Virus record (IMG/VR): IMGVR_UViG_2541047885_000001
From: a virus
Lineage: Duplodnaviria; Heunggongvirae; Uroviricota; Caudoviricetes
Length of the DNA stretch: 21,692 bases
Direction: 5' to 3' (one strand)
Positions 152 to 6,595 of the stretch are shown one piece after another. A model generated the notes under the pieces. It saw nothing but the letters and a program-made list of their open reading frames with translations. It was not told where the DNA came from and made no database searches. The translations under genes were made by a program, and so were the position numbers. Positions within the stretch are counted from its first letter, which is position 1, and the number at the start of each line of letters is the position of its first letter.

Positions 152-331
152 ATGCGAAACGAAAAATTGCAGATGCGTAGAGCGCAAGCTGCCGCAAGAC
201 GTTCTTTCAATGGAAGCGTAGAGTACGTAAAAGTTACTATGACAAAAGATCACGCAAGTCGCGTATCCCGCGCTTTCTTTGATTCTCGTAACAATAAGGA
301 AAATTATGAGTTCGTCTGCGTCGCAGAATGA
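152..331 (+). CDS. Candidate small basic protein (59 aa), first gene of a possible two-gene cargo module; below the ORF-track length cutoff
   Basis: ATG at 152 with GAGGT 8 nt upstream; open frame to TGA at 329..331; overlaps the start of the downstream ORF by 26 nt in another frame. Arg/Lys-rich translation (MRNEKLQMRRAQAAARR...). Confidence 0.25.
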   Translation: MRNEKLQMRRAQAAARRSFNGSVEYVKVTMTKDHASRVSRAFFDSRNNKENYEFVCVAE

Positions 332-851
332 TAAAAATCAAATTGTCAGATATAAGGGTCGAGTATTGCATACGCAAAATTTCTCGGCCCTTTGTGCATC
401 TGATCTTGAGCTGAAGAAAGTATCTGATGCCTTTACCCAGTATTGGAAAACGGGATACCATCCATCTCTTGGTAAAGATGCTGCATTTGCTCGTCCGACA
501 GAAATGCTTAAACTAAATGTCAGGCATACTCATGTCGATAACCAAGACTATATTCCAGAAGATAGTGATAAAAAACACACTGGTAAAAAATCATCTTGGG
601 ATGCATGGAAAAATATAGCGTCTGTGCAAGTAAAATGCATACCAACAAGTGATTGCTTTTTAGTTTATTCGGTAAATCACAATCGTGATGCGCTGGTTAT
701 GTTTTTTGTTGACGCAGATGCCCACAACATAACTGAGCAAGAAGAGTTTAAAGAGGCAGCAATCACTATCAGTTATCAATTCTTTGAGAAAACAAAAACA
801 GAACCAATGCCTTTAGAAGAAGATCTTTTTTCTGATAAATGGAAGGAATAG
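306..851 (+). CDS. Hypothetical protein (181 aa), low-GC cargo gene; no family recognised
   Basis: ORF-track frame 279..851; ATG at 306 preceded by AAGGA at 296..300. Roughly 38% GC against about 50% in flanking phage genes. Followed directly by an intrinsic terminator. Confidence 0.6.
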   Translation: MSSSASQNDKNQIVRYKGRVLHTQNFSALCASDLELKKVSDAFTQYWKTGYHPSLGKDAAFARPTEMLKLNVRHTHVDNQDYIPEDSDKKHTGKKSSWDAWKNIASVQVKCIPTSDCFLVYSVNHNRDALVMFFVDADAHNITEQEEFKEAAITISYQFFEKTKTEPMPLEEDLFSDKWKE

Positions 852-943: not shown

Positions 944-1105
944 ATGAAAAAAGCATTTGCTGCACTGTTCGTTTTGTTGTCTCTGGTAGCGTCAACTCAG
1001 GCCTTTGCCGGTCGTTGTCAGCACGACAGCGACACTGCTGCTGACGGCTCACGCTGCGGTGGGCGTTCTGCGGATTCCCGCCCGGGCGGCGGTGGCATTC
1101 GTTAA
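944..1105 (+). CDS. Possible small secreted peptide (53 aa) with a signal-peptide-like N-terminus
   Basis: ATG at 944 within ORF-track frame 839..1105; MKKAFAALFVLLSLVASTQAFA resembles a Sec signal with an AFA-G cleavage site. Weak RBS; Gly/Arg-rich low-complexity tail. Confidence 0.25.
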   Translation: MKKAFAALFVLLSLVASTQAFAGRCQHDSDTAADGSRCGGRSADSRPGGGGIR

Positions 1106-1154: not shown

Positions 1155-1188
1155 GCACATCCCTGTGCCGCCGTTCTGTCAGAAGAAC
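1155..1188. repeat. Right arm of the 34-bp inverted repeat; overlaps the last codons and stop of ant
   Basis: Exact reverse complement of 1..34; the ant stop codon (1179..1181) lies inside the arm. Confidence 0.85.
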
Positions 1189-2123
1189 CCTGCTTTGTCG
1201 TTGATATACTCCGCGTGCGTCTGGATATCACGCAGGCATTTGCTCACACCGACGATGTAGCAGAACATGGTGGTCAGCTCCGCCGCCGCGCCCGATACAT
1301 CGTGCCCGTCGTCCTGCAACTGGTTTAGCAGATTCATCAGCAGTGAGTTCTCCGTCAGGCCGAGAACACCAGACGGAGAATGAATCAGGCTGCGGTAGCC
1401 GGGCTTCAGCGGATAACCATAACATTTTGTCTGTGTTTTAATTGCCTCACGAAGCGCATCTAACATCTTGACTGCCACTTCATCATTCTCTGATGCAGAT
1501 CCAGCAGGGAGATGCTCCCCTTCAAGCGGAACCCGAGCAACAAGAGACAACGCTTCGGCGAATTGATCTTCATCAATTTCTTTGTACGAACAGCCAAAAT
1601 GAGATTTCAGTGACGACCACATGGTGATCATCGCCTTAGCCTGTTTTTCTTTTGGCAGAGACTGACCGCGACTCATGACGAGTTGTTTAATGGCTTCCTG
1701 CTGTTCAGTGGTTATTTTACCCGGCAACGCCTTTTTAGCTTTGCGTGGGTTAACCACATGGCCTTTAGTCCAGTACTCGTAGAGCACATCGTCACACTCT
1801 TCCTGATACTGGATTACCTTGTCGCGGATTTCAGGACGGACTTTGTTAGGGCTGATGGTTTGCAACCAGCCAGCAAGTTTGCGAAGTGCCAAACAAATAA
1901 TCTCACGGCGCTGTTCATCCCCAGGAAGCTGCATTGTGATTTTCACAATGCAGGTTTTAAACCGCTGCTTCATTTTCGTAAACTGTGAAGCCCAATCCAT
2001 ACCCATGCCTTCAACGATAGGTTTCATTGGGGTGTACGGTTCTCCGTTGTGATTGACAACATAAAGTTCTGCGCCGTGGAATGGCACGTTGATAGTAGAT
2101 ACCGCTGTTGCTATACTCGTCAT
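1179..2123 (-). CDS. ant: Phage antirepressor (Ant-like), 314 aa
   Basis: Sits downstream of an Arc-like gene and divergent from an Mnt-like gene, as in P22 immI. N-terminal region looks like antirepressor N-domains; size close to P22 Ant (300 aa). Confidence 0.75.
   Translation of the reverse strand: MTSIATAVSTINVPFHGAELYVVNHNGEPYTPMKPIVEGMGMDWASQFTKMKQRFKTCIVKITMQLPGDEQRREIICLALRKLAGWLQTISPNKVRPEIRDKVIQYQEECDDVLYEYWTKGHVVNPRKAKKALPGKITTEQQEAIKQLVMSRGQSLPKEKQAKAMITMWSSLKSHFGCSYKEIDEDQFAEALSLVARVPLEGEHLPAGSASENDEVAVKMLDALREAIKTQTKCYGYPLKPGYRSLIHSPSGVLGLTENSLLMNLLNQLQDDGHDVSGAAAELTTMFCYIVGVSKCLRDIQTHAEYINDKAGFF
2089..2117 (+). promoter_or_regulatory. Sigma70-like promoter antisense to the ant 5' end (candidate Psar)
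   Basis: TTGATA (2089..2094), 17-bp spacer, TATACT (2112..2117); predicted start near 2124, opposite the ant start codon (2121..2123). Confidence 0.45.
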
Positions 2124-2197
2124 GTCGTTAATTCCTATACGTAGTTTTACGATACTGAAGCCCTGACGGTCTGGCCACCGTTGGGCTTCGCTGTTTT
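2124..2197 (+). ncRNA. Candidate sar-like antisense RNA (~70-75 nt) covering the ant start codon and RBS
   Basis: Runs from the antisense promoter to a plus-strand hairpin (GAAGCCC 2157..2163 paired with GGGCTTC 2183..2189, inner ACGGT/ACCGT stem) followed by a T-rich stretch. Complementary to the ant SD (2133..2136) and ATG. Architecture parallels P22 sar. Confidence 0.4.
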
Positions 2198-2363
2198 ATG
2201 CCACGCTATTCTTCTCACCAGTGAGTCCATACACTTTCCTCAGCTGATAGATAATCTCTGTATTGAACTTTCGGCATTCTTTTTCGCCATTTCTTTCAAT
2301 AGCTAACTTCACATCGTCCGGAAAACGAACTCGTCGTTGACACATCTCTTTTGCTTTTTGCAT
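2196..2363 (-). CDS. arc: Arc-like ribbon-helix-helix repressor (55 aa from ATG 2363; the ORF track extends to a TTG at 2399)
   Basis: ATG at 2363 with AAGGAG 7 nt upstream. Translation matches the Arc pattern (basic N-terminal beta strand, RVRFPDDV..., NTEIIYQL). Lies immediately upstream of ant. Confidence 0.8.
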   Translation of the reverse strand: MQKAKEMCQRRVRFPDDVKLAIERNGEKECRKFNTEIIYQLRKVYGLTGEKNSVA

Positions 2364-2378
2364 TTCATATCTCCTTAG

Positions 2379-2447
2379 CCCCACCGTGGGGCAAAACAAT
2401 TGTCACACCGTGCGTCATTGATGTCAAGCACACGGTGAGGCATACTT
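2379..2447. promoter_or_regulatory. Divergent Pant / Pmnt promoter region with three candidate operator heptamers
   Basis: Minus strand: TTGACA (2427..2422), 17 bp, GACAAT (2404..2399). Plus strand: TTGATG (2418..2423), 17 bp, CATACT (2441..2446). CACCGTG at 2382..2388 and 2406..2412, and its inverse CACGGTG at 2431..2437; near-palindrome CCCCACCGTGGGG at 2379..2391. Confidence 0.5.
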
Positions 2448-2483
2448 CAATCATTGCAAGTAACTCAATATTTGGTGAAGAAC

Positions 2484-2915
2484 ATGAGCAGAGAAGATCC
2501 ACAACTAAGGATCAGACTTCCCGTTGAAGTAAAAGAAAAAATAGAAATTTCTGCAAAAGCCAATAAGCGATCAATGAACGCTGAAATAGTACAACGTCTT
2601 GACACCAGCTTTCTGAAAGATATTCATGAAGATGACGTAATTTCTGCTTATGAAGCAAAAATTATTGCAAACAATGCACGACATGAAATATTAAATATTA
2701 TTTTCAAAAGAACCTTTAATGAAATTAATAAGAAAATAACACTTGGACATACAAGTTTTTATATAAACCTTAATGACCTTGAACTGGAATCACTTGCAGA
2801 TAATGATTACCAGATCATCTTTGAAAAAACATTTAATAAGCTCAATGAACTAGGTTACATCATCTGTGAAAACTCATGGGATGCAGATGGTTTTGGAATT
2901 GAAATACCTGAATAG
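2484..2915 (+). CDS. mnt: Mnt-like RHH repressor (143 aa) with an unrecognised ~95-aa C-terminal domain
   Basis: ATG at 2484 with GGTGA 5 nt upstream. N-terminus (DPQLRIRLPVEVKEKIEISAKANKRSMNAEIVQRL) closely resembles the P22 Mnt DNA-binding domain as I recall it. C-terminal domain contains an internal repeat. About 30% GC. Confidence 0.8.
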   Translation: MSREDPQLRIRLPVEVKEKIEISAKANKRSMNAEIVQRLDTSFLKDIHEDDVISAYEAKIIANNARHEILNIIFKRTFNEINKKITLGHTSFYINLNDLELESLADNDYQIIFEKTFNKLNELGYIICENSWDADGFGIEIPE

Positions 2916-2926
2916 GAAGAACAAAA

Positions 2927-2947
2927 GGCGTGTACATATTACACGTC
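2927..2947 (+). other. Hairpin between mnt-like and the downstream gene (possible partial terminator or attenuator)
   Basis: GGCGTGTA / TACACGTC stem with a 5-nt loop, followed by TTTAATA. Confidence 0.3.
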
Positions 2948-3005
2948 TTTAATACAATTGAAAAACGCCACATTACTGATGTATGTTACAACAAGGAGCG
3001 ATATT

Positions 3006-3569
3006 TTGAAAACCATATCTATATTAAAGGTTGCATTAGGCGTCGCTATTATTTTGACTCTCTCAATATTGTTTTATTTTTACCACAAAAAAACTGCTAT
3101 TGCTCTTGATGGTCACACGGCAAACTCATTTTTCTCAGAGTACATAGTGCCGCTATCAGGAAGCGGTATAACAAATAAATATACTGACTATGACATCAAA
3201 TATGGAATTGATGATGGGAAGACTATTGTATTACATGTAATCATTAAAAACCTAATGACAGTAAATAAAAATACAGACTTTAACGATAAAAATACAATAC
3301 ATCACAACAACAGCAAAACATTAATTTCTTATAGTAGCAACATCTATACGGATAAATACCTAAAATACATATCAGAAGATACAATAAAAGAAACCCGCGA
3401 AAAGTTAAAAAACATATATTGTGCATCCGGCAGTTTTCACAAATTATCGCCGCAAGAGCGTTTATTCTACGAAGCAAGAAAACAACGTAAGTCAATAATA
3501 TTACATTATTATGCTGATTCAGGGGAATCACTCATATTTAATATTGGGGTTTCCCCTGAATCATGCTAA
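3006..3569 (+). CDS. Hypothetical single-pass membrane protein (187 aa from TTG 3006; alternative ATG at 2979), low-GC cargo
   Basis: Perfect AAGGAG (2993..2998) 7 nt upstream of TTG 3006. N-terminal hydrophobic helix ISILKVALGVAIILTLSILFYFY followed by HKK. Same strand as and just downstream of mnt-like. Asn/Lys/Tyr/Ile-rich. Confidence 0.7.
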   Translation: MKTISILKVALGVAIILTLSILFYFYHKKTAIALDGHTANSFFSEYIVPLSGSGITNKYTDYDIKYGIDDGKTIVLHVIIKNLMTVNKNTDFNDKNTIHHNNSKTLISYSSNIYTDKYLKYISEDTIKETREKLKNIYCASGSFHKLSPQERLFYEARKQRKSIILHYYADSGESLIFNIGVSPESC

Positions 3570-3580
3570 AGGTGTTTAAC

Positions 3581-6500
3581 TCACCGCATCACCGGATCCA
3601 CCTGGTTTATTAGTGGCGCAATCCAGAACAGGTTATTGCCTGGTATCAGGGTTCGGGCATTATGCACAATACGATCACCGGCATCACCATTCAACACTCC
3701 TGCGGTCACATCAATGATGCTATCCGCAAGACCAAATGACGGTCCGAATAGAGATCCTACGAATCCACGACTGGCATACCTAGACTGTGTGCCAGTGCCA
3801 AATAAAGCCCCCAGCCCAACAGCACCACCAGTAGCCTTTTCAGCCATGTTGTTATATTCCATCAATGGTCCAAGAATACCGGATCTATCTATACCCTCAA
3901 GCACCAGTTTCTCTGGTGACCAGTCAACATTTTTCCCTTTCGATGCTTCTTTAAGCGCATAGACCAGTGAGCCAAGAGCAATCTGAAATGCAGTGCCATA
4001 ATAAAATTGCGCAGTTCCTTCCTGTAACCCACCAAGTAGCGCACGGTTGTATGAAGCCGTTGTGAATGATTTAAACTGAAATATCGTTCGCCCCATTGGA
4101 GTACTCGCCCATAAAGGTGTGTCACCAATACCGGGGGTGATGATAGTGTTATTAACGTCTTTCAGAACCGCTGACTGGAATACTCCGGCAACGTACTGAT
4201 CATCCCATTTATCAAAGTTACCAATGTGCCATCCATCAATTACCTCGCCATGTTTCCCGAACTCACTGCGAATACGTGCAGCCATATTGTCGTTGATACC
4301 GAGTTTTGCCAGGCGGCGTGCAGGAAATGCACCGGACAAAATACCGTCTGAAATAACCATTCCGTTCATGGATTTGTTTATGTCATTAAAGCGATCCATG
4401 AGTGTCAGCTTGCCGAAGGCATCAGTAATTCGCTCCATTCCGGCTTCGACTGCTGTTGTCCTGGAAGAGCTGTCAACAAGATCACCAATTGCACGAGAGC
4501 GTGAATGCAGTACAGTTTCCAGTCCGATACCCATCTTCAACATCTCTTCTTTGCTGGCCTTAAATGCCGGTGATTGGGATATCTGAGAAGCATAGCCTTT
4601 CATGGTGTTACGGAAACCATTAACCATAACCCCTCTGGCCAGATCTGGAATAGCTGATACTGTCATTCCACCGAGTTTGGTCGTGAAGTTCACATCCCGC
4701 AGAAAAGCGCCAGCACGAACAAAAAACGAAGACGGATCATCAGGCATCCCATATGTACCAACAAGACGATCGCGTAATGCTGTTATGTCTCTGAGATCAT
4801 TTGCTCTTGATTTTGAAAGTCTGGACTGTTCTTTCCGTAATTCCTTTTCGTACTTTCGCATTAATGAATCGAGTTTACCCTGAGGAACAACTTCACCATT
4901 GCTCTCATAACGTGCTTTCAGATTTGCCACACTTTCGTCATATTTCGCCTTTATTTTTTCAGGCACTTCCCGTAACAGACTGTCATATTCGTCCTCAATT
5001 AATTGCAGACGCTCAGTCATAGTTCGTTTGCCAAATGTTCTCGTCAACTCAATTTCTGCTGCCGCTTCACGGATATGACGTTGCAGCACGTAATTCACAT
5101 CACTTTCAAGATAATCCCTGATAAGACTATCAGGAACATTTAATGTTCTTTCTTTCGTACTACCTGCGGCTTTTACAGAAAATACGCTGACAAAATCCTG
5201 TGGAACCTTAGCACCAGTAATTTTATTAATTACGATATCTGCTGCAATTTCAGCATCCTCAGGAACCAGTGTTTTATTTCCTCTCGACCACCAGTCAACC
5301 AAAATACGTCGAAATTTATCGCGTTCACTGATTATTTTTCCAACTTTATATATGCGTGGGAAATAGCTTGCCTGGCCTAATGCTTTCAGTTCTTCATCTG
5401 GCGGCAATAAACCAAGCTTTTGCATTTCAACTTTCACCCGATTTAATACAGTTCGCATCGCCTGCGCCGTTTCCTGAACAACAGGATTAGCATGCACATC
5501 ACCGCTTCGCATAGCATTCCCAACCTGCTGACGAAATGAATCAAAACTCATGTCACCACCATCAGCTTTATACTTTGCGTATGCCTGTTTATTTCCGACA
5601 ACAACAGCAGCTTCTTCACGCTGCCATCCACGTGTACGGGTTTCTACAGCTACCGGTGTTTCAATCCCCCTTTCATTTCCTTTAAGGGTGAAATTATTTT
5701 CGGCTAACTCCAGCGTTGTTTTTCGCACTGTCCTGGACGGAGACTCCATTAACCTTGTCAAAGGAGTAAGATAGCTCCCTGCTTTCCATGCAGCCTTTCC
5801 AACCACCCCACCAGAAACAGGGGTTAAATCATCCAGAGTCGCTGTATCAATTTTCATAGCACCAACACTACCACCATCGGAAAGCGAAGCGGCAGCCCTG
5901 TCAGTCACTGATGTAATGCTCATATTATCAAGAGCATCAGCAACCTCACGTGTGGCTGCAGCCCGGACGGATGGCGAAAGCGCAACACCAGCACTGGCAA
6001 ACACGCCGCTCATCATCGCCCCCGCTGCAACGTGAGCGGCACTTTCACCCCATGAGCGTGTTATTTGCTGATTATTCAGTACAACCTCGCTTAATGCTGT
6101 ACCGGCAGCACCAATCGCAATCTGTGAGCCAATACGCGCCAGTGCCCCTCCTTGAGCACCGGGAATAAACATTGACGCAACAGTAACCGGATCCATTCCC
6201 GCAGCAATACTGGCAAGGGTTCCAACTACGCCAGCATCAGACAATAAACGTCTGTCTTCATTTTCATCATCTATCTGCTGCTTAATCCACGCCGTTTCCT
6301 CTGGTGATCGGGAATCTGCAAATTTCGCCCCCCAGTATTCATAACCGTGCAACTCATTTTTATCAGCATATGGGTTATAACCCTCGACCGGTTCAAACTG
6401 TCTGGCTGGGCGGAAAAAACCAGACAGAATATTGTTCTGTCGCATTGCAGCCCCCCATACGGAAGGCTCAGGTGGCAATGGCTCAGGATTAGCCCCTTCC

Positions 6501-6595
6501 GGAAGGGCAACATCAAACCCAGTTTGTTCCGGCAAAACATTACCTGACGGGATCAGTCCGTTATTAAGATCTTCAGCTTGTGCATAAACTGGCAT
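3581..6595 (-). CDS. Internal virion / DNA-ejection protein (1004 aa)
   Basis: Last gene of the late operon before immI (the position of P22 gp16). Long coiled-coil-like segments and Gly/Ala-rich hydrophobic stretches. ATGA start/stop overlap with the upstream gene at 6595. Confidence 0.8.
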   Translation of the reverse strand: MPVYAQAEDLNNGLIPSGNVLPEQTGFDVALPEGANPEPLPPEPSVWGAAMRQNNILSGFFRPARQFEPVEGYNPYADKNELHGYEYWGAKFADSRSPEETAWIKQQIDDENEDRRLLSDAGVVGTLASIAAGMDPVTVASMFIPGAQGGALARIGSQIAIGAAGTALSEVVLNNQQITRSWGESAAHVAAGAMMSGVFASAGVALSPSVRAAATREVADALDNMSITSVTDRAAASLSDGGSVGAMKIDTATLDDLTPVSGGVVGKAAWKAGSYLTPLTRLMESPSRTVRKTTLELAENNFTLKGNERGIETPVAVETRTRGWQREEAAVVVGNKQAYAKYKADGGDMSFDSFRQQVGNAMRSGDVHANPVVQETAQAMRTVLNRVKVEMQKLGLLPPDEELKALGQASYFPRIYKVGKIISERDKFRRILVDWWSRGNKTLVPEDAEIAADIVINKITGAKVPQDFVSVFSVKAAGSTKERTLNVPDSLIRDYLESDVNYVLQRHIREAAAEIELTRTFGKRTMTERLQLIEDEYDSLLREVPEKIKAKYDESVANLKARYESNGEVVPQGKLDSLMRKYEKELRKEQSRLSKSRANDLRDITALRDRLVGTYGMPDDPSSFFVRAGAFLRDVNFTTKLGGMTVSAIPDLARGVMVNGFRNTMKGYASQISQSPAFKASKEEMLKMGIGLETVLHSRSRAIGDLVDSSSRTTAVEAGMERITDAFGKLTLMDRFNDINKSMNGMVISDGILSGAFPARRLAKLGINDNMAARIRSEFGKHGEVIDGWHIGNFDKWDDQYVAGVFQSAVLKDVNNTIITPGIGDTPLWASTPMGRTIFQFKSFTTASYNRALLGGLQEGTAQFYYGTAFQIALGSLVYALKEASKGKNVDWSPEKLVLEGIDRSGILGPLMEYNNMAEKATGGAVGLGALFGTGTQSRYASRGFVGSLFGPSFGLADSIIDVTAGVLNGDAGDRIVHNARTLIPGNNLFWIAPLINQVDPVMR

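What the first reader, a model, noticed from the sequence alone, without database searches (positions are those of the whole stretch)
2484..3569. Lysogen-expressed low-GC pair: Mnt-like repressor with an unknown C-terminal domain plus a membrane protein
The immI region is organised as in P22 (mnt divergent from arc-ant), but the mnt homologue is extended by a ~95-aa domain I cannot assign, and a single-pass membrane protein sits directly downstream on the same strand. Both are ~30% GC, so they look horizontally acquired. Genes co-transcribed with mnt should be on in the lysogen, and this spot corresponds to where P22 carries sieA. That makes the membrane protein a candidate superinfection-exclusion or other prophage-encoded defence factor.
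Basis: partly seen in the sequence, partly recalled or inferred. Interest (0 to 1): 0.75.

Follow-up and report, generated by a model that had tools for sequence, protein, structure and literature searches.

The report
P22-type immI switch plus periplasmic moron
This stretch of an E. coli prophage holds a P22-style antirepressor control switch, whose repressor carries an extra unexplained tail, and beside it an unrelated exported protein of unknown function that sits where phage P22 keeps its superinfection-exclusion gene, so it is a reasonable but untested candidate for blocking other phages.

Summary
Window 2484-2915 encodes a 143-aa Mnt homologue. Window 3006-3569 (TTG start, not 2958) encodes a 187-aa protein with an N-terminal hydrophobic anchor. 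Both are 31.7% GC against 48.1% for the window.

The window is a TL-2011b-like (epsilon15-type) podophage prophage. All four P22 immI elements are present: Mnt, Arc, Ant and a sar antisense RNA (Rfam hit).

Long-Mnt residues 1-86 align with the whole of P22 Mnt, including its tetramerisation helix. Only about 57 residues (87-143) are really extra. This long form is a widespread Enterobacterales family that always travels with arc and an antirepressor, and elsewhere it has no downstream partner gene.

The "membrane protein" is not part of that cassette. Its relatives (28-52% identical; Escherichia, Providencia, Proteus, metagenomes) abut the 3' end of the about-1000-aa internal-virion/ejection protein gene convergently in every locus where the downstream DNA is held, with or without mnt nearby. 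Several carry cleavable signal peptides.

Superinfection exclusion is plausible by position and analogy, but untested. Co-transcription with mnt is not supported.

The parts
1179..2123 (-). ant, an antirepressor (314 aa)
   Evidence: Pfam P22_AR_N, E 9.6e-45. 40% identical to P22 Ant, E 3e-41.
2089..2117 (+). Psar-like promoter (TTGATA-17-TATACT, with an extended -10 TG), inside the 5' end of ant
   Evidence: Consensus scan, 10 of 12 matches. The position matches Psar in the P22 record.
2125..2192 (+). sar antisense RNA across the arc-ant junction
   Evidence: Rfam RF00262: 45.2 bits (gathering score 43), E 1.9e-6, full-length match to model positions 1-68. A terminator-like stem at 2168-2187 with a T-tract follows.
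2196..2363 (-). arc-like small ribbon-helix-helix repressor (55 aa)
   Evidence: 33% identical to P22 Arc, E 4e-5. PHROG Arc-like families, E about 2e-5. A 55-aa gene occupies the same place in every long-Mnt cassette examined.
2399..2427 (-). Pant-like promoter (TTGACA-17-GACAAT with TG)
   Evidence: Consensus scan, 10 of 12 matches. The core sequence is conserved in the Yersinia and Enterobacter cassettes.
2377..2441 (.). Three operator-like palindromes sharing a CAC(C/G)GTG core. O_L (2377-2391, GCCCCACCGTGGGGC) lies at the predicted Pant start. O_M (2401-2417) lies between the Pant -10 and -35. O_R (2429-2441) overlaps the spacer of a candidate Pmnt (TTGATG 2418-2423 / CATACT 2441-2446).
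   Evidence: Repeat search. The same three sites are present in the Y. pestis and Enterobacter cassettes. Assigning each site to a repressor is inference by analogy with Oarc and Omnt in the P22 record.
2484..2915 (+). Long Mnt (143 aa). Ribbon-helix-helix domain at residues 1-46, Mnt-type long helix at 55-86, and an extra beta-alpha-beta-beta subdomain at 87-143.
   Evidence: Pfam Arc, E 1e-14. PDB 1mnt, E 2.3e-7. BLASTP against P22 Mnt covers Mnt residues 1-83. AF2 model, pLDDT 79.6. phrog_1388, unknown function. Family alignment.
2924..2950 (.). Hairpin between mnt and the exported-protein gene. The better T-tract is on the - strand, so it is probably the terminator of the late-operon read-through and a partial barrier to Pmnt transcripts.
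   Evidence: dG -13.1 kcal/mol, z -6.6 on the + strand; -8.2 kcal/mol, z -3.3 on the - strand. A hairpin with a different sequence sits at the same aligned position in L015-L019. The scan calls a - strand terminator here.
3006..3569 (+). Exported protein (187 aa). N-terminal signal-anchor at residues 2-26, then a periplasmic alpha/beta domain with two cysteines (C139, C187) that are invariant or nearly so.
3581..6595 (-). 1004-aa internal-virion/ejection protein gene, convergent with the exported-protein gene (11-bp gap). It is the constant neighbour of that family.
   Evidence: Synteny in every relative locus with downstream DNA held. It follows the 905-aa protein with an SLT domain and the T7 gp14-family core protein.

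Best explanation
The coordinates cover two independent elements that happen to lie next to each other in the variable slot between the ejection-protein genes and the tailspike of a TL-2011b-like temperate podophage.

(1) A portable P22-type immI cassette. Long Mnt is expressed from Pmnt in the lysogen. By inference, it binds palindromic operators around the divergent Pant and keeps the antirepressor off. Arc and the sar antisense RNA damp ant after derepression, as in P22. Long-Mnt residues 1-86 are a complete Mnt: a ribbon-helix-helix domain plus the tetramerisation helix. The extra 57-residue alpha/beta subdomain most likely strengthens or extends oligomerisation, so that one oligomer can occupy more than one of the three operators. 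A signal- or partner-binding role is not excluded.

(2) A separate moron on the strand opposite the late operon. It encodes an exported protein, anchored in the inner membrane here and released by a cleavable signal peptide in relatives. The protein probably carries a disulfide bond, and its fold resembles the peptide-binding PA3611/AspS fold. It is probably made from its own promoter.

The most likely job, by inference and with roughly one chance in three, is superinfection exclusion at the envelope. The protein would bind a periplasm-exposed segment of the incoming phage's ejection proteins, or a host envelope partner they need. That would block assembly of the DNA-delivery conduit. This is the functional counterpart of P22 SieA, built from an unrelated protein.
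For: immI cassette:
- Homology to P22 Mnt (32% identity, E 6e-14, covering all 83 Mnt residues), Arc and Ant.
- Rfam sar hit above the gathering score, with flanking promoter and terminator.
- A Pant-like promoter and three CACNGTG palindromes, conserved almost base for base in Y. pestis and Enterobacter cassettes.
- The cassette (long Mnt, divergent 55-aa Arc, Bro-N/Ant) recurs inside the tail-gene regions of unrelated siphophage prophages, with no same-strand gene after mnt.

Exported protein:
- An N-terminal hydrophobic helix. Relatives have classic cleavable signal peptides, such as MKKLIPLLLIFPFIAFA/SPD.
- Two cysteines, one invariant and one nearly so.
- The helix/strand order and the cysteine positions (end of the helix equivalent to alpha2, and the C-terminal turn) match the AspS/PA3611 description in PMC3542185.
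- The gene is convergent with and abuts the 1004-aa gene homologue in all 16 divergent loci with downstream sequence, as well as in all 18 TL-2011b-like loci.
- The slot is the same as sieA in P22. SieA acts on ejection proteins gp16 and gp20 (PMC10883804).
- pN/pS is 0.70, against 0.05-0.13 for mnt, ant and the 1004-aa and 905-aa genes.
- One relative (P0141, locus L012) is fused in frame to a diverged copy of the conserved N-terminal segment of the ejection protein plus a transmembrane helix (E 2e-13).
Against: - There are no expression data and no phenotype.
- No PADLOC, Pfam or NCBIfam family supports a defence role.
- SieA is unrelated in sequence and architecture.
- The nearest fold, AspS, is a secretin pilotin, not a defence protein.
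- pN/pS of 0.70 rests on few substitutions and fits relaxed constraint equally well.
- The ejection-protein fusion is seen on a single short-read contig.
- Related E. coli prophages with the same ejection protein lack the gene.
- Promoter assignments are consensus matches only.
- AT-rich DNA in E. coli is often silenced by H-NS (established knowledge, not tested here).
Confidence: 0.5

Rival explanations
1. The exported protein is a lysogenic-conversion or fitness factor unrelated to phage defence. For example, it could be a periplasmic chaperone or pilotin-like binder of a host secretin or another envelope protein, changing secretion, adhesion or envelope properties of the lysogen.
For: - The best structural matches are PA3611 and the T2SS pilotin AspS, whose known role is binding a secretin C-terminal helix.
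- The protein is exported and has conserved cysteines.
- It is a moron-type gene: low GC, opposite strand.
- It is widespread in pathogenic and commensal Escherichia.
Against: - No lipobox, unlike AspS.
- No sequence similarity to YacC, the E. coli K-12 protein taken here as an AspS-family member (hhalign probability 0.1).
- Strict linkage to the ejection-protein gene across genera is not expected for a host-directed factor.
- The one fusion found is to an ejection-protein segment.
Confidence: 0.22
2. The exported protein works in the phage's own lytic cycle, made early or late. It might protect the infected cell from secondary ejection or lysis from without, or assist or regulate its own ejection or lysis proteins in the periplasm, for example by restraining the SLT transglycosylase domain of the 905-aa protein.
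For: - Long-term vertical association with the structural module. Identity tracks that of the neighbours: 28-52% against 33-81% for the 1004-aa protein.
- The adjacent 905-aa protein carries an SLT domain.
- T4 Sp and Imm are precedents for exclusion proteins made during infection (established knowledge).
Against: - The gene is antisense to the late operon, so late transcription would collide with it.
- Related prophages with the same ejection-protein gene lack it, so it is probably dispensable.
Confidence: 0.13
3. Residues 87-143 of long Mnt form a sensor or partner-binding domain that makes ant derepression conditional, through a ligand, a protease or a protein from another mobile element. 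On this reading they are not a passive oligomerisation module.
For: - The subdomain is conserved across many genera. Invariant residues include G88, F92, L99, L101, T116, L120, L123, G124, Y125, F137 and I141.
- No LexA box is visible in the control region (direct reading), so some other release signal is needed.
- Cassettes with near-identical operators occur in different prophages, which would allow cross-talk.
Against: - No ligand-binding family or fold was recognised.
- P22 immI works without any such sensor.
- The AF2 model packs the subdomain against the long helix as one compact unit.
Confidence: 0.15
4. The exported-protein gene is a decaying passenger with no current function.
For: - pN/pS is 0.70.
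- Frameshifted variants occur at a homopolymeric A tract (window 3407-3412) and at the homologous site of a divergent lineage (P0003, P0129).
- The gene is absent from some related prophages.
Against: - It is intact at 187 aa on more than 1,100 contigs.
- The motifs, the two cysteines and the predicted fold are kept at 28% identity across genera.
- All 18 IMG/VR copies are full-length and gap-free.
Confidence: 0.07

Closest known systems
Phage P22 immI region (mnt, Omnt/Oarc, arc, sar, ant)
   Same: - All four genetic elements are homologous to P22's: Mnt 32%, Arc 33%, Ant 40%, and sar by Rfam.
- mnt is divergent from arc-ant, and sar is antisense at the arc-ant junction.
- Operator-like palindromes lie at the Pant start and between its -10 and -35.
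- The region sits between the last ejection-protein gene and the tailspike.
   Different: - Mnt carries an extra conserved 57-residue alpha/beta subdomain.
- There are three related palindromes rather than one Omnt plus one Oarc.
- The cassette sits in an epsilon15-type podophage here, and elsewhere inside the tail-gene regions of siphophage prophages.
P22 SieA (inner-membrane superinfection exclusion protein; Leavitt et al. 2024, PMC10883804)
   Same: - Same genomic slot and orientation: downstream of mnt on the same strand and convergent with the last ejection-protein gene.
- Both are envelope-located.
- SieA types are also highly divergent, at about 25% identity.
   Different: - No sequence relation (hhalign probability 0.2%).
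- SieA is hydrophobic over much of its length and the paper describes an inner-membrane protein with several predicted transmembrane helices and a cytoplasmic motif. The window protein has one N-terminal anchor and a periplasmic globular domain.
- Exclusion has not been shown for the window protein.
PA3611 (PDB 3NPD) and the AspS family of T2SS pilotins (PDB 4FTF, 5ZDH)
   Same: - Same order of helices and strands.
- Two conserved cysteines at positions equivalent to the alpha2-alpha4 disulfide.
- Exported to the periplasm. Like PA3611, it is not a lipoprotein.
   Different: - No detectable sequence homology.
- No lipobox.
- An extra insert of about 35 residues (residues 87-115, low confidence) in the Escherichia branch.
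- Phage-encoded and linked to an ejection-protein gene, not to a secretin.
Periplasm- or envelope-level blocks to phage DNA entry: T4 Sp and Imm, T5 Llp, phi80/N15 Cor, Streptococcus Ltp (from established knowledge); the HXS system (PMC13128918, abstract seen)
   Same: The proposed mode of action is the same: a small exported or membrane-anchored protein that stops genome delivery after adsorption.
   Different: The protein families are unrelated. No experimental link exists for this protein.

Membership tests
P22 Mnt repressor family | N-terminal ribbon-helix-helix (Arc/Mnt) DNA-binding domain | tested here: met
   Pfam PF03869, E 1e-14, residues 2-46. PDB 1mnt, E 2.3e-7. BLASTP against P22 Mnt, 32% identity, E 6e-14.
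P22 Mnt repressor family | C-terminal helix that assembles two dimers into a tetramer | tested here: inconclusive
   Residues 52-86 align with Mnt residues 50-83, and AF2 predicts one long helix at 55-86. The oligomeric state could not be computed or measured.
P22 immI module | mnt divergent from an arc-ant operon | tested here: met
   ORF layout. Arc and Ant homology.
P22 immI module | sar antisense RNA spanning the arc-ant junction | tested here: met
   Rfam RF00262, 45.2 bits against a gathering score of 43, full length. Promoter and terminator flank it.
P22 immI module | Mnt and Arc operators overlapping Pant and Pmnt | tested here: inconclusive
   Three conserved palindromes lie at the predicted positions. 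Protein binding is not testable with these tools.
SieA superinfection-exclusion proteins | Sequence homology to SieA types A-C, including the FxRYPxEAxxFNK motif | tested here: not met
   hhalign of family alignment A3 against P22 SieA gives probability 0.2%. The motif is absent from the sequence.
SieA superinfection-exclusion proteins | Multi-pass inner-membrane protein | tested here: not met
   There is one N-terminal hydrophobic helix followed by a globular domain. Relatives have cleavable signal peptides.
SieA superinfection-exclusion proteins | Gene located between the last ejection-protein gene and the tailspike, convergent with the former | tested here: met
   P22 record compared with the window layout.
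SieA superinfection-exclusion proteins | Blocks DNA injection by related phages | not testable with these tools
   Needs plating and DNA-entry assays.
AspS / PA3611 fold family | alpha1-beta1-beta2-beta3-alpha2-alpha3-beta4-beta5-alpha4 fold | tested here: met
   [not shown]
AspS / PA3611 fold family | Conserved disulfide tying alpha2 to the C-terminal helix | tested here: inconclusive
   C139 (invariant, at the end of helix 124-138) and C187 (at least 90% conserved, at the C-terminal turn) sit at the equivalent positions. The Cys-Cys distance in the model could not be read out.
AspS / PA3611 fold family | Detectable sequence homology | tested here: not met
   No Pfam or PDB sequence hit to AspS or PA3611. 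hhalign against E. coli YacC, taken here as an AspS-family member, gives probability 0.1%.
AspS pilotins | Outer-membrane lipoprotein (lipobox cysteine) with a partner secretin | tested here: not met
   No lipobox in any family member. No secretin gene in the window or in related loci.
Thoeris ThsB (TIR-like) | Significant match to a ThsB profile, and a cytoplasmic TIR domain | tested here: not met
   PADLOC gives E 0.0026, 16 bits, a partial match only. The fold search found no TIR domain. The protein is predicted to be exported.

The most novel reading that the evidence does not exclude
The exported protein founds a new family of periplasmic superinfection-exclusion proteins specific to podophages with T7-type internal virion proteins. 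Its AspS-like groove would capture the conserved N-terminal helix of the incoming about-1000-aa ejection protein (window protein residues about 66-111). That would stop the trans-envelope conduit from forming. The fused variant P0141, which carries a copy of that very segment plus a membrane anchor, would be a decoy version of the same mechanism. A separate point is that the 57-residue tail of long Mnt could be a sensor that makes antirepressor release conditional.
Probability: 0.25. Interest if true: 0.7.

Novelty: new variant of a known kind. Interest (0 to 1): 0.45.

Why it matters
The immI part adds little biology. It does show that a longer form of Mnt, with an uncharacterised and conserved C-terminal subdomain, is the common form in Enterobacterales prophages, including the Y. 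pestis lambda-like prophage. It also shows that cassettes with near-identical operators sit in unrelated prophages, which allows cross-regulation of antirepressors between them.

The exported protein is the more useful lead. It is an uncharacterised family (phrog_8033), present on more than a thousand Escherichia contigs. It is locked next to the ejection-protein gene in several genera, evolves fast and is predicted to adopt a peptide-binding periplasmic fold.

If it excludes phages, it would be a second solution, independent of SieA, to blocking podophage DNA delivery. It would also give a handle on how the poorly understood ejection proteins of epsilon15/TL-2011b-type phages cross the periplasm. 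That matters for phage therapy against STEC and ExPEC strains that carry such prophages.

Tried and rejected
Searches that gave nothing useful:
- Pfam, NCBIfam and PADLOC gave nothing significant for the exported protein. The hits were DUF7847 E 0.058, ThsB E 0.0026 at 16 bits, and GroEL E 0.15. All were rejected as noise.
- A Foldseek search of BFVD found no viral structural relative, best E 0.1.
- The afdb50 library was unavailable.
- tblastn against the phage collection found only TL-2011b itself.
A narrower alignment found only Proteus cibi among species-representative genomes.
- hhalign against P22 SieA and E. coli YacC was negative.

Points left unresolved:
- I looked for a canonical sigma-70 promoter for the exported-protein gene. 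The candidates are TGTACA-16-TACAAT at 2931-2958 and TTGAAA-18-TATGTT at 2958-2987. They are no more frequent than in shuffled sequence, and the alignment with mnt-less relatives shows only a -10-like element after the hairpin. The promoter therefore remains unassigned.
- No LexA box was seen by eye in the 2364-2483 control region.
- Literature on TL-2011b and on Uetakevirus antirepressors says nothing about either protein.
- The Kapi1 lysogen transcriptome reports mnt as undetected in a P22-like lysogen. This is a caution against assuming that mnt-linked genes are 'on'.
Full report
**What the window is.** Bases 2100-3700 are 99.4% identical to Escherichia phage TL-2011b. The same stretch is present at 97-99% identity in 36 of 5,426 complete E. 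coli genomes, always on the chromosome. TL-2011b is a temperate podophage with epsilon15/phiV10-type late genes: T7-like internal virion proteins, a tailspike and an O-acetyltransferase. In epsilon15 and phiV10, the stretch between the last internal-virion gene and the tailspike is a short, variable region holding small opposite-strand genes or a Bro-N antirepressor. In the window this slot is large. It holds a YafO-like toxin, a small secreted peptide, ant, arc, the Mnt homologue and the second protein of the finding.

**Checking the observation.** The two + strand ORFs are real.
- ORF 2484-2915 (143 aa) matches Pfam Arc at residues 2-46, E 1e-14.
- The second ORF reads from TTG 2958. Its likely start is TTG 3006, 7 nt after AAGGAG. 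PGAP uses that start, and both the RBS and the start column align with those of distant relatives.
- Both genes are 31.7% GC. The window is 48.1%, ant 49.1% and the adjacent 1004-aa gene 46.6%.

**The immI cassette is a full P22 homologue.**
- Long Mnt is 32% identical to P22 Mnt (E 6e-14), the 55-aa gene is 33% identical to Arc (E 4e-5), and Ant is 40% identical to P22 Ant (E 3e-41).
- Rfam finds a full-length sar antisense RNA at 2125-2192 on the + strand, at 45.2 bits against a gathering score of 43.
- That RNA is preceded by TTGATA-17-TATACT inside the start of ant, and it ends in a terminator-like stem at 2168-2187 with a T-tract. This is the arrangement annotated in the P22 record.
- The 120-bp control region holds a Pant-like promoter on the - strand at 2427-2399, matching 10 of 12 positions.
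- It also holds three palindromes with a CAC(C/G)GTG core. One lies at the predicted Pant start (2377-2391, a perfect 15-mer). One lies between the Pant -10 and -35 (2401-2417). One overlaps the spacer of a candidate Pmnt (2429-2441).
- The same three sites, with an almost invariant central block TGTCACACCGTGCGTCATTG, are present in the cassettes of a Y. pestis lambda-like prophage and an Enterobacter siphophage prophage.
- Which repressor binds which site is inferred from the P22 layout. It is not shown here.

**What the 'unknown C-terminal domain' of Mnt is.** The BLASTP alignment with P22 Mnt runs through all 83 Mnt residues and covers residues 1-86 of the window protein. AF2 predicts one long helix at 55-86. 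So about 35 of the 95 'unassigned' residues correspond to the Mnt helix that, from established knowledge of P22 Mnt, makes the tetramer.

This is not a peculiarity of this phage. More than 260 proteins of 142-154 aa from Yersinia (including Y. pestis, 557 contigs), Citrobacter, Enterobacter, Salmonella, Klebsiella, Proteus, Providencia, Serratia and others are 57-68% identical over the full length. Their N-terminus is almost invariant, and the tail has a set of invariant residues. PHROGs lists the family as phrog_1388, unknown function.

In the six homologue loci examined, which represent two proteins, the long Mnt sits divergent from a 55-aa gene and an antirepressor. The antirepressor is of varying type: Bro-N, Bro-N+P22_AR_C, or P22_AR_N here. 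The cassette is embedded among tail genes, and the next gene after mnt is on the other strand.

I conclude that this is a portable immI cassette whose repressor is a long Mnt. My preferred reading of the tail is extra oligomerisation, which fits three operators. A sensor role is kept as a rival.

**The second protein is a separate, exported protein.** A word-indexed search found only near-identical Escherichia proteins. An exhaustive phmmer search and a profile search found a small family of 153-194 aa at 27-52% identity. It shares these features:
- An N-terminal hydrophobic segment.
- The conserved motifs LSG..A..FF..Y.VP, Y.VFYG.DDG..I and YYD..G.SL.FG.GVSP.SC.
- Two cysteines, C139 invariant and C187 at least 90% conserved.

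Relatives from IMG/VR contigs start with textbook cleavable signal peptides, such as MKKLIPLLLIFPFIAFA/SPD and MRILFPLLIMFPFTAFA/STD. The domain is therefore periplasmic. In the window protein the hydrophobic stretch is longer and is followed by HKK. That suggests an uncleaved anchor, though cleavage after AIA cannot be ruled out.

The order of elements in the model is helix, three strands, two helices, two strands, C-terminal turn. The cysteines sit at the end of the first of the two helices and at the C-terminus. This matches the published description of AspS and PA3611 and their conserved disulfide.

There is no sequence-level relation to that family, no lipobox and no secretin nearby. I therefore call it fold resemblance, not membership.

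**Its constant neighbour is the ejection-protein gene, not mnt.**
- In Providencia and Proteus prophages, an unassigned metagenome contig and IMG/VR contigs, 17 loci carry relatives only 28-52% identical. In all 16 loci that hold downstream DNA, the gene is convergent with, and lies about 10-40 bp from, the 3' end of the homologue of the 1004-aa protein, which is 33-81% identical.
- The upstream neighbour varies. It is small and large terminase genes in L015 and L017, a 175-aa gene in L009, L010 and L012, and a 98-aa gene in L011. No Mnt, Arc or P22-type Ant homologue is upstream in any of these loci.
- All 18 TL-2011b-like IMG/VR loci have the window's arrangement.
- Some E. coli prophages with a closely related 1004-aa gene lack the exported-protein gene. 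It is therefore dispensable.
- Low GC is a family trait: 33-37% against 39-53% for the loci. Identity falls in step with the structural genes. This looks like a long-resident moron rather than a recent import.

**Relation to mnt transcription.** A hairpin at 2924-2950 lies between the two genes (dG -13.1 kcal/mol, z -6.6). A hairpin of different sequence sits at the same aligned position in relatives that have no mnt. The better T-tract is on the - strand. It is therefore probably the terminator for late-operon read-through, and only a partial barrier in the + direction.

Because relatives lack mnt, the gene must be able to start on its own. In P22, sieA has its own promoter downstream of an mnt terminator. 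The candidate promoters here are only consensus matches. Co-transcription with mnt is therefore neither required nor shown.

**The sieA analogy.** Gene 16 (ejection protein) is convergent with sieA. sieA lies downstream of mnt and orf59a on the same strand, and arc-sar-ant-gene 9 lie on the other side.

Leavitt et al. [quoted passage not shown] Escape mutations fall in ejection proteins gp16 and gp20. [quoted passage not shown]

The window protein is unrelated to SieA: hhalign probability is 0.2%, and SieA is hydrophobic over much of its length. The analogy is one of position and, possibly, of function.

**Further circumstantial evidence.**
- Among Escherichia alleles, the gene's pN/pS is 0.70. 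The values for its neighbours are 0.05 (mnt), 0.05 (ant), 0.13 (the 1004-aa gene) and 0.11 (the 905-aa gene). The substitution counts are small, so this cannot separate diversifying from relaxed selection.
- One relative, P0141 on locus L012, continues in frame. The extension is a diverged copy (37-50% identity, E 2e-13) of the conserved N-terminal segment of the ejection protein, followed by a transmembrane helix. It shows no DNA-level similarity to the resident gene, so it is not a recent duplication. This is a domain-fusion hint of a functional link, but it rests on one short-read contig. Six further loci of that branch are unfused.

**Verdict.** However, the 'pair' is two independent elements.
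- The long Mnt is a new variant of a known repressor.
- The exported protein is an uncharacterised family with a PA3611/AspS-like predicted fold, in the sieA-equivalent slot. Envelope-level superinfection exclusion is the best single guess, at about one in three. The rivals are a host-directed envelope factor, a role in the phage's own cycle, and decay.
- Nothing here is categorically new. The candidate is specific and cheap to test.

Noticed in passing
window 2125-2192 (+), with promoter 2089-2117 and terminator stem 2168-2187: A full-length Rfam sar antisense RNA (45.2 bits, gathering score 43) spans the arc-ant junction, as in P22.
   Followed up: yes
window 2924-2950; L015-L019 at the aligned position: A hairpin upstream of the exported-protein gene is conserved in position but not in sequence, across phages with and without mnt. 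Its T-tract is on the - strand, so it looks like a terminator that stops late-operon transcripts running antisense through the moron.
   Followed up: partly
L012 2958-3752 (protein P0141): A Providencia/Proteus-type relative of the exported protein is fused in frame to a diverged copy of the N-terminal conserved segment of the neighbouring ejection protein, followed by a C-terminal transmembrane helix. It is seen on a single contig. Six sister loci are unfused.
   Followed up: partly
window 3407-3412 (A6 tract inside the exported-protein gene): A -1 frameshift at this A tract explains variant P0003. A -1 frameshift at the homologous A7 tract explains P0129 in a divergent lineage. These could be slippage or assembly errors. 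Intact 187-aa copies dominate, on more than 1,100 contigs.
   Followed up: partly
window 152-331 and 306-851 (+): A YafO-family toxin gene (Pfam E 1.2e-5; named as such by PGAP) is preceded by a 59-aa ORF with no Pfam match. No recognisable YafN antitoxin was seen.
   Followed up: no
window 944-1105 (+), inside a 54-58% GC patch at about 900-1350: A 53-aa product with a signal peptide followed by a Gly/Arg/Asp-rich peptide (phrog_14503, 'membrane associated protein', moron category). It sits in a locally high-GC patch, in contrast to the low-GC island next door.
   Followed up: no
L003-L008 (Y. pestis and Enterobacter prophages) compared with window 2364-2483: The immI control regions of prophages from different genera and different morphotypes share an almost invariant central operator/promoter block and a near-invariant Mnt N-terminus. 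Antirepressor control could therefore cross-talk between unrelated prophages.
   Followed up: partly
L041 4680-4976 and L042 4680-4976: In related E. coli prophages that lack the exported-protein gene, the slot next to the ejection-protein gene holds a 98-aa same-strand gene (WP_001555166) and a truncated antirepressor pseudogene. The slot therefore turns over.
   Followed up: no
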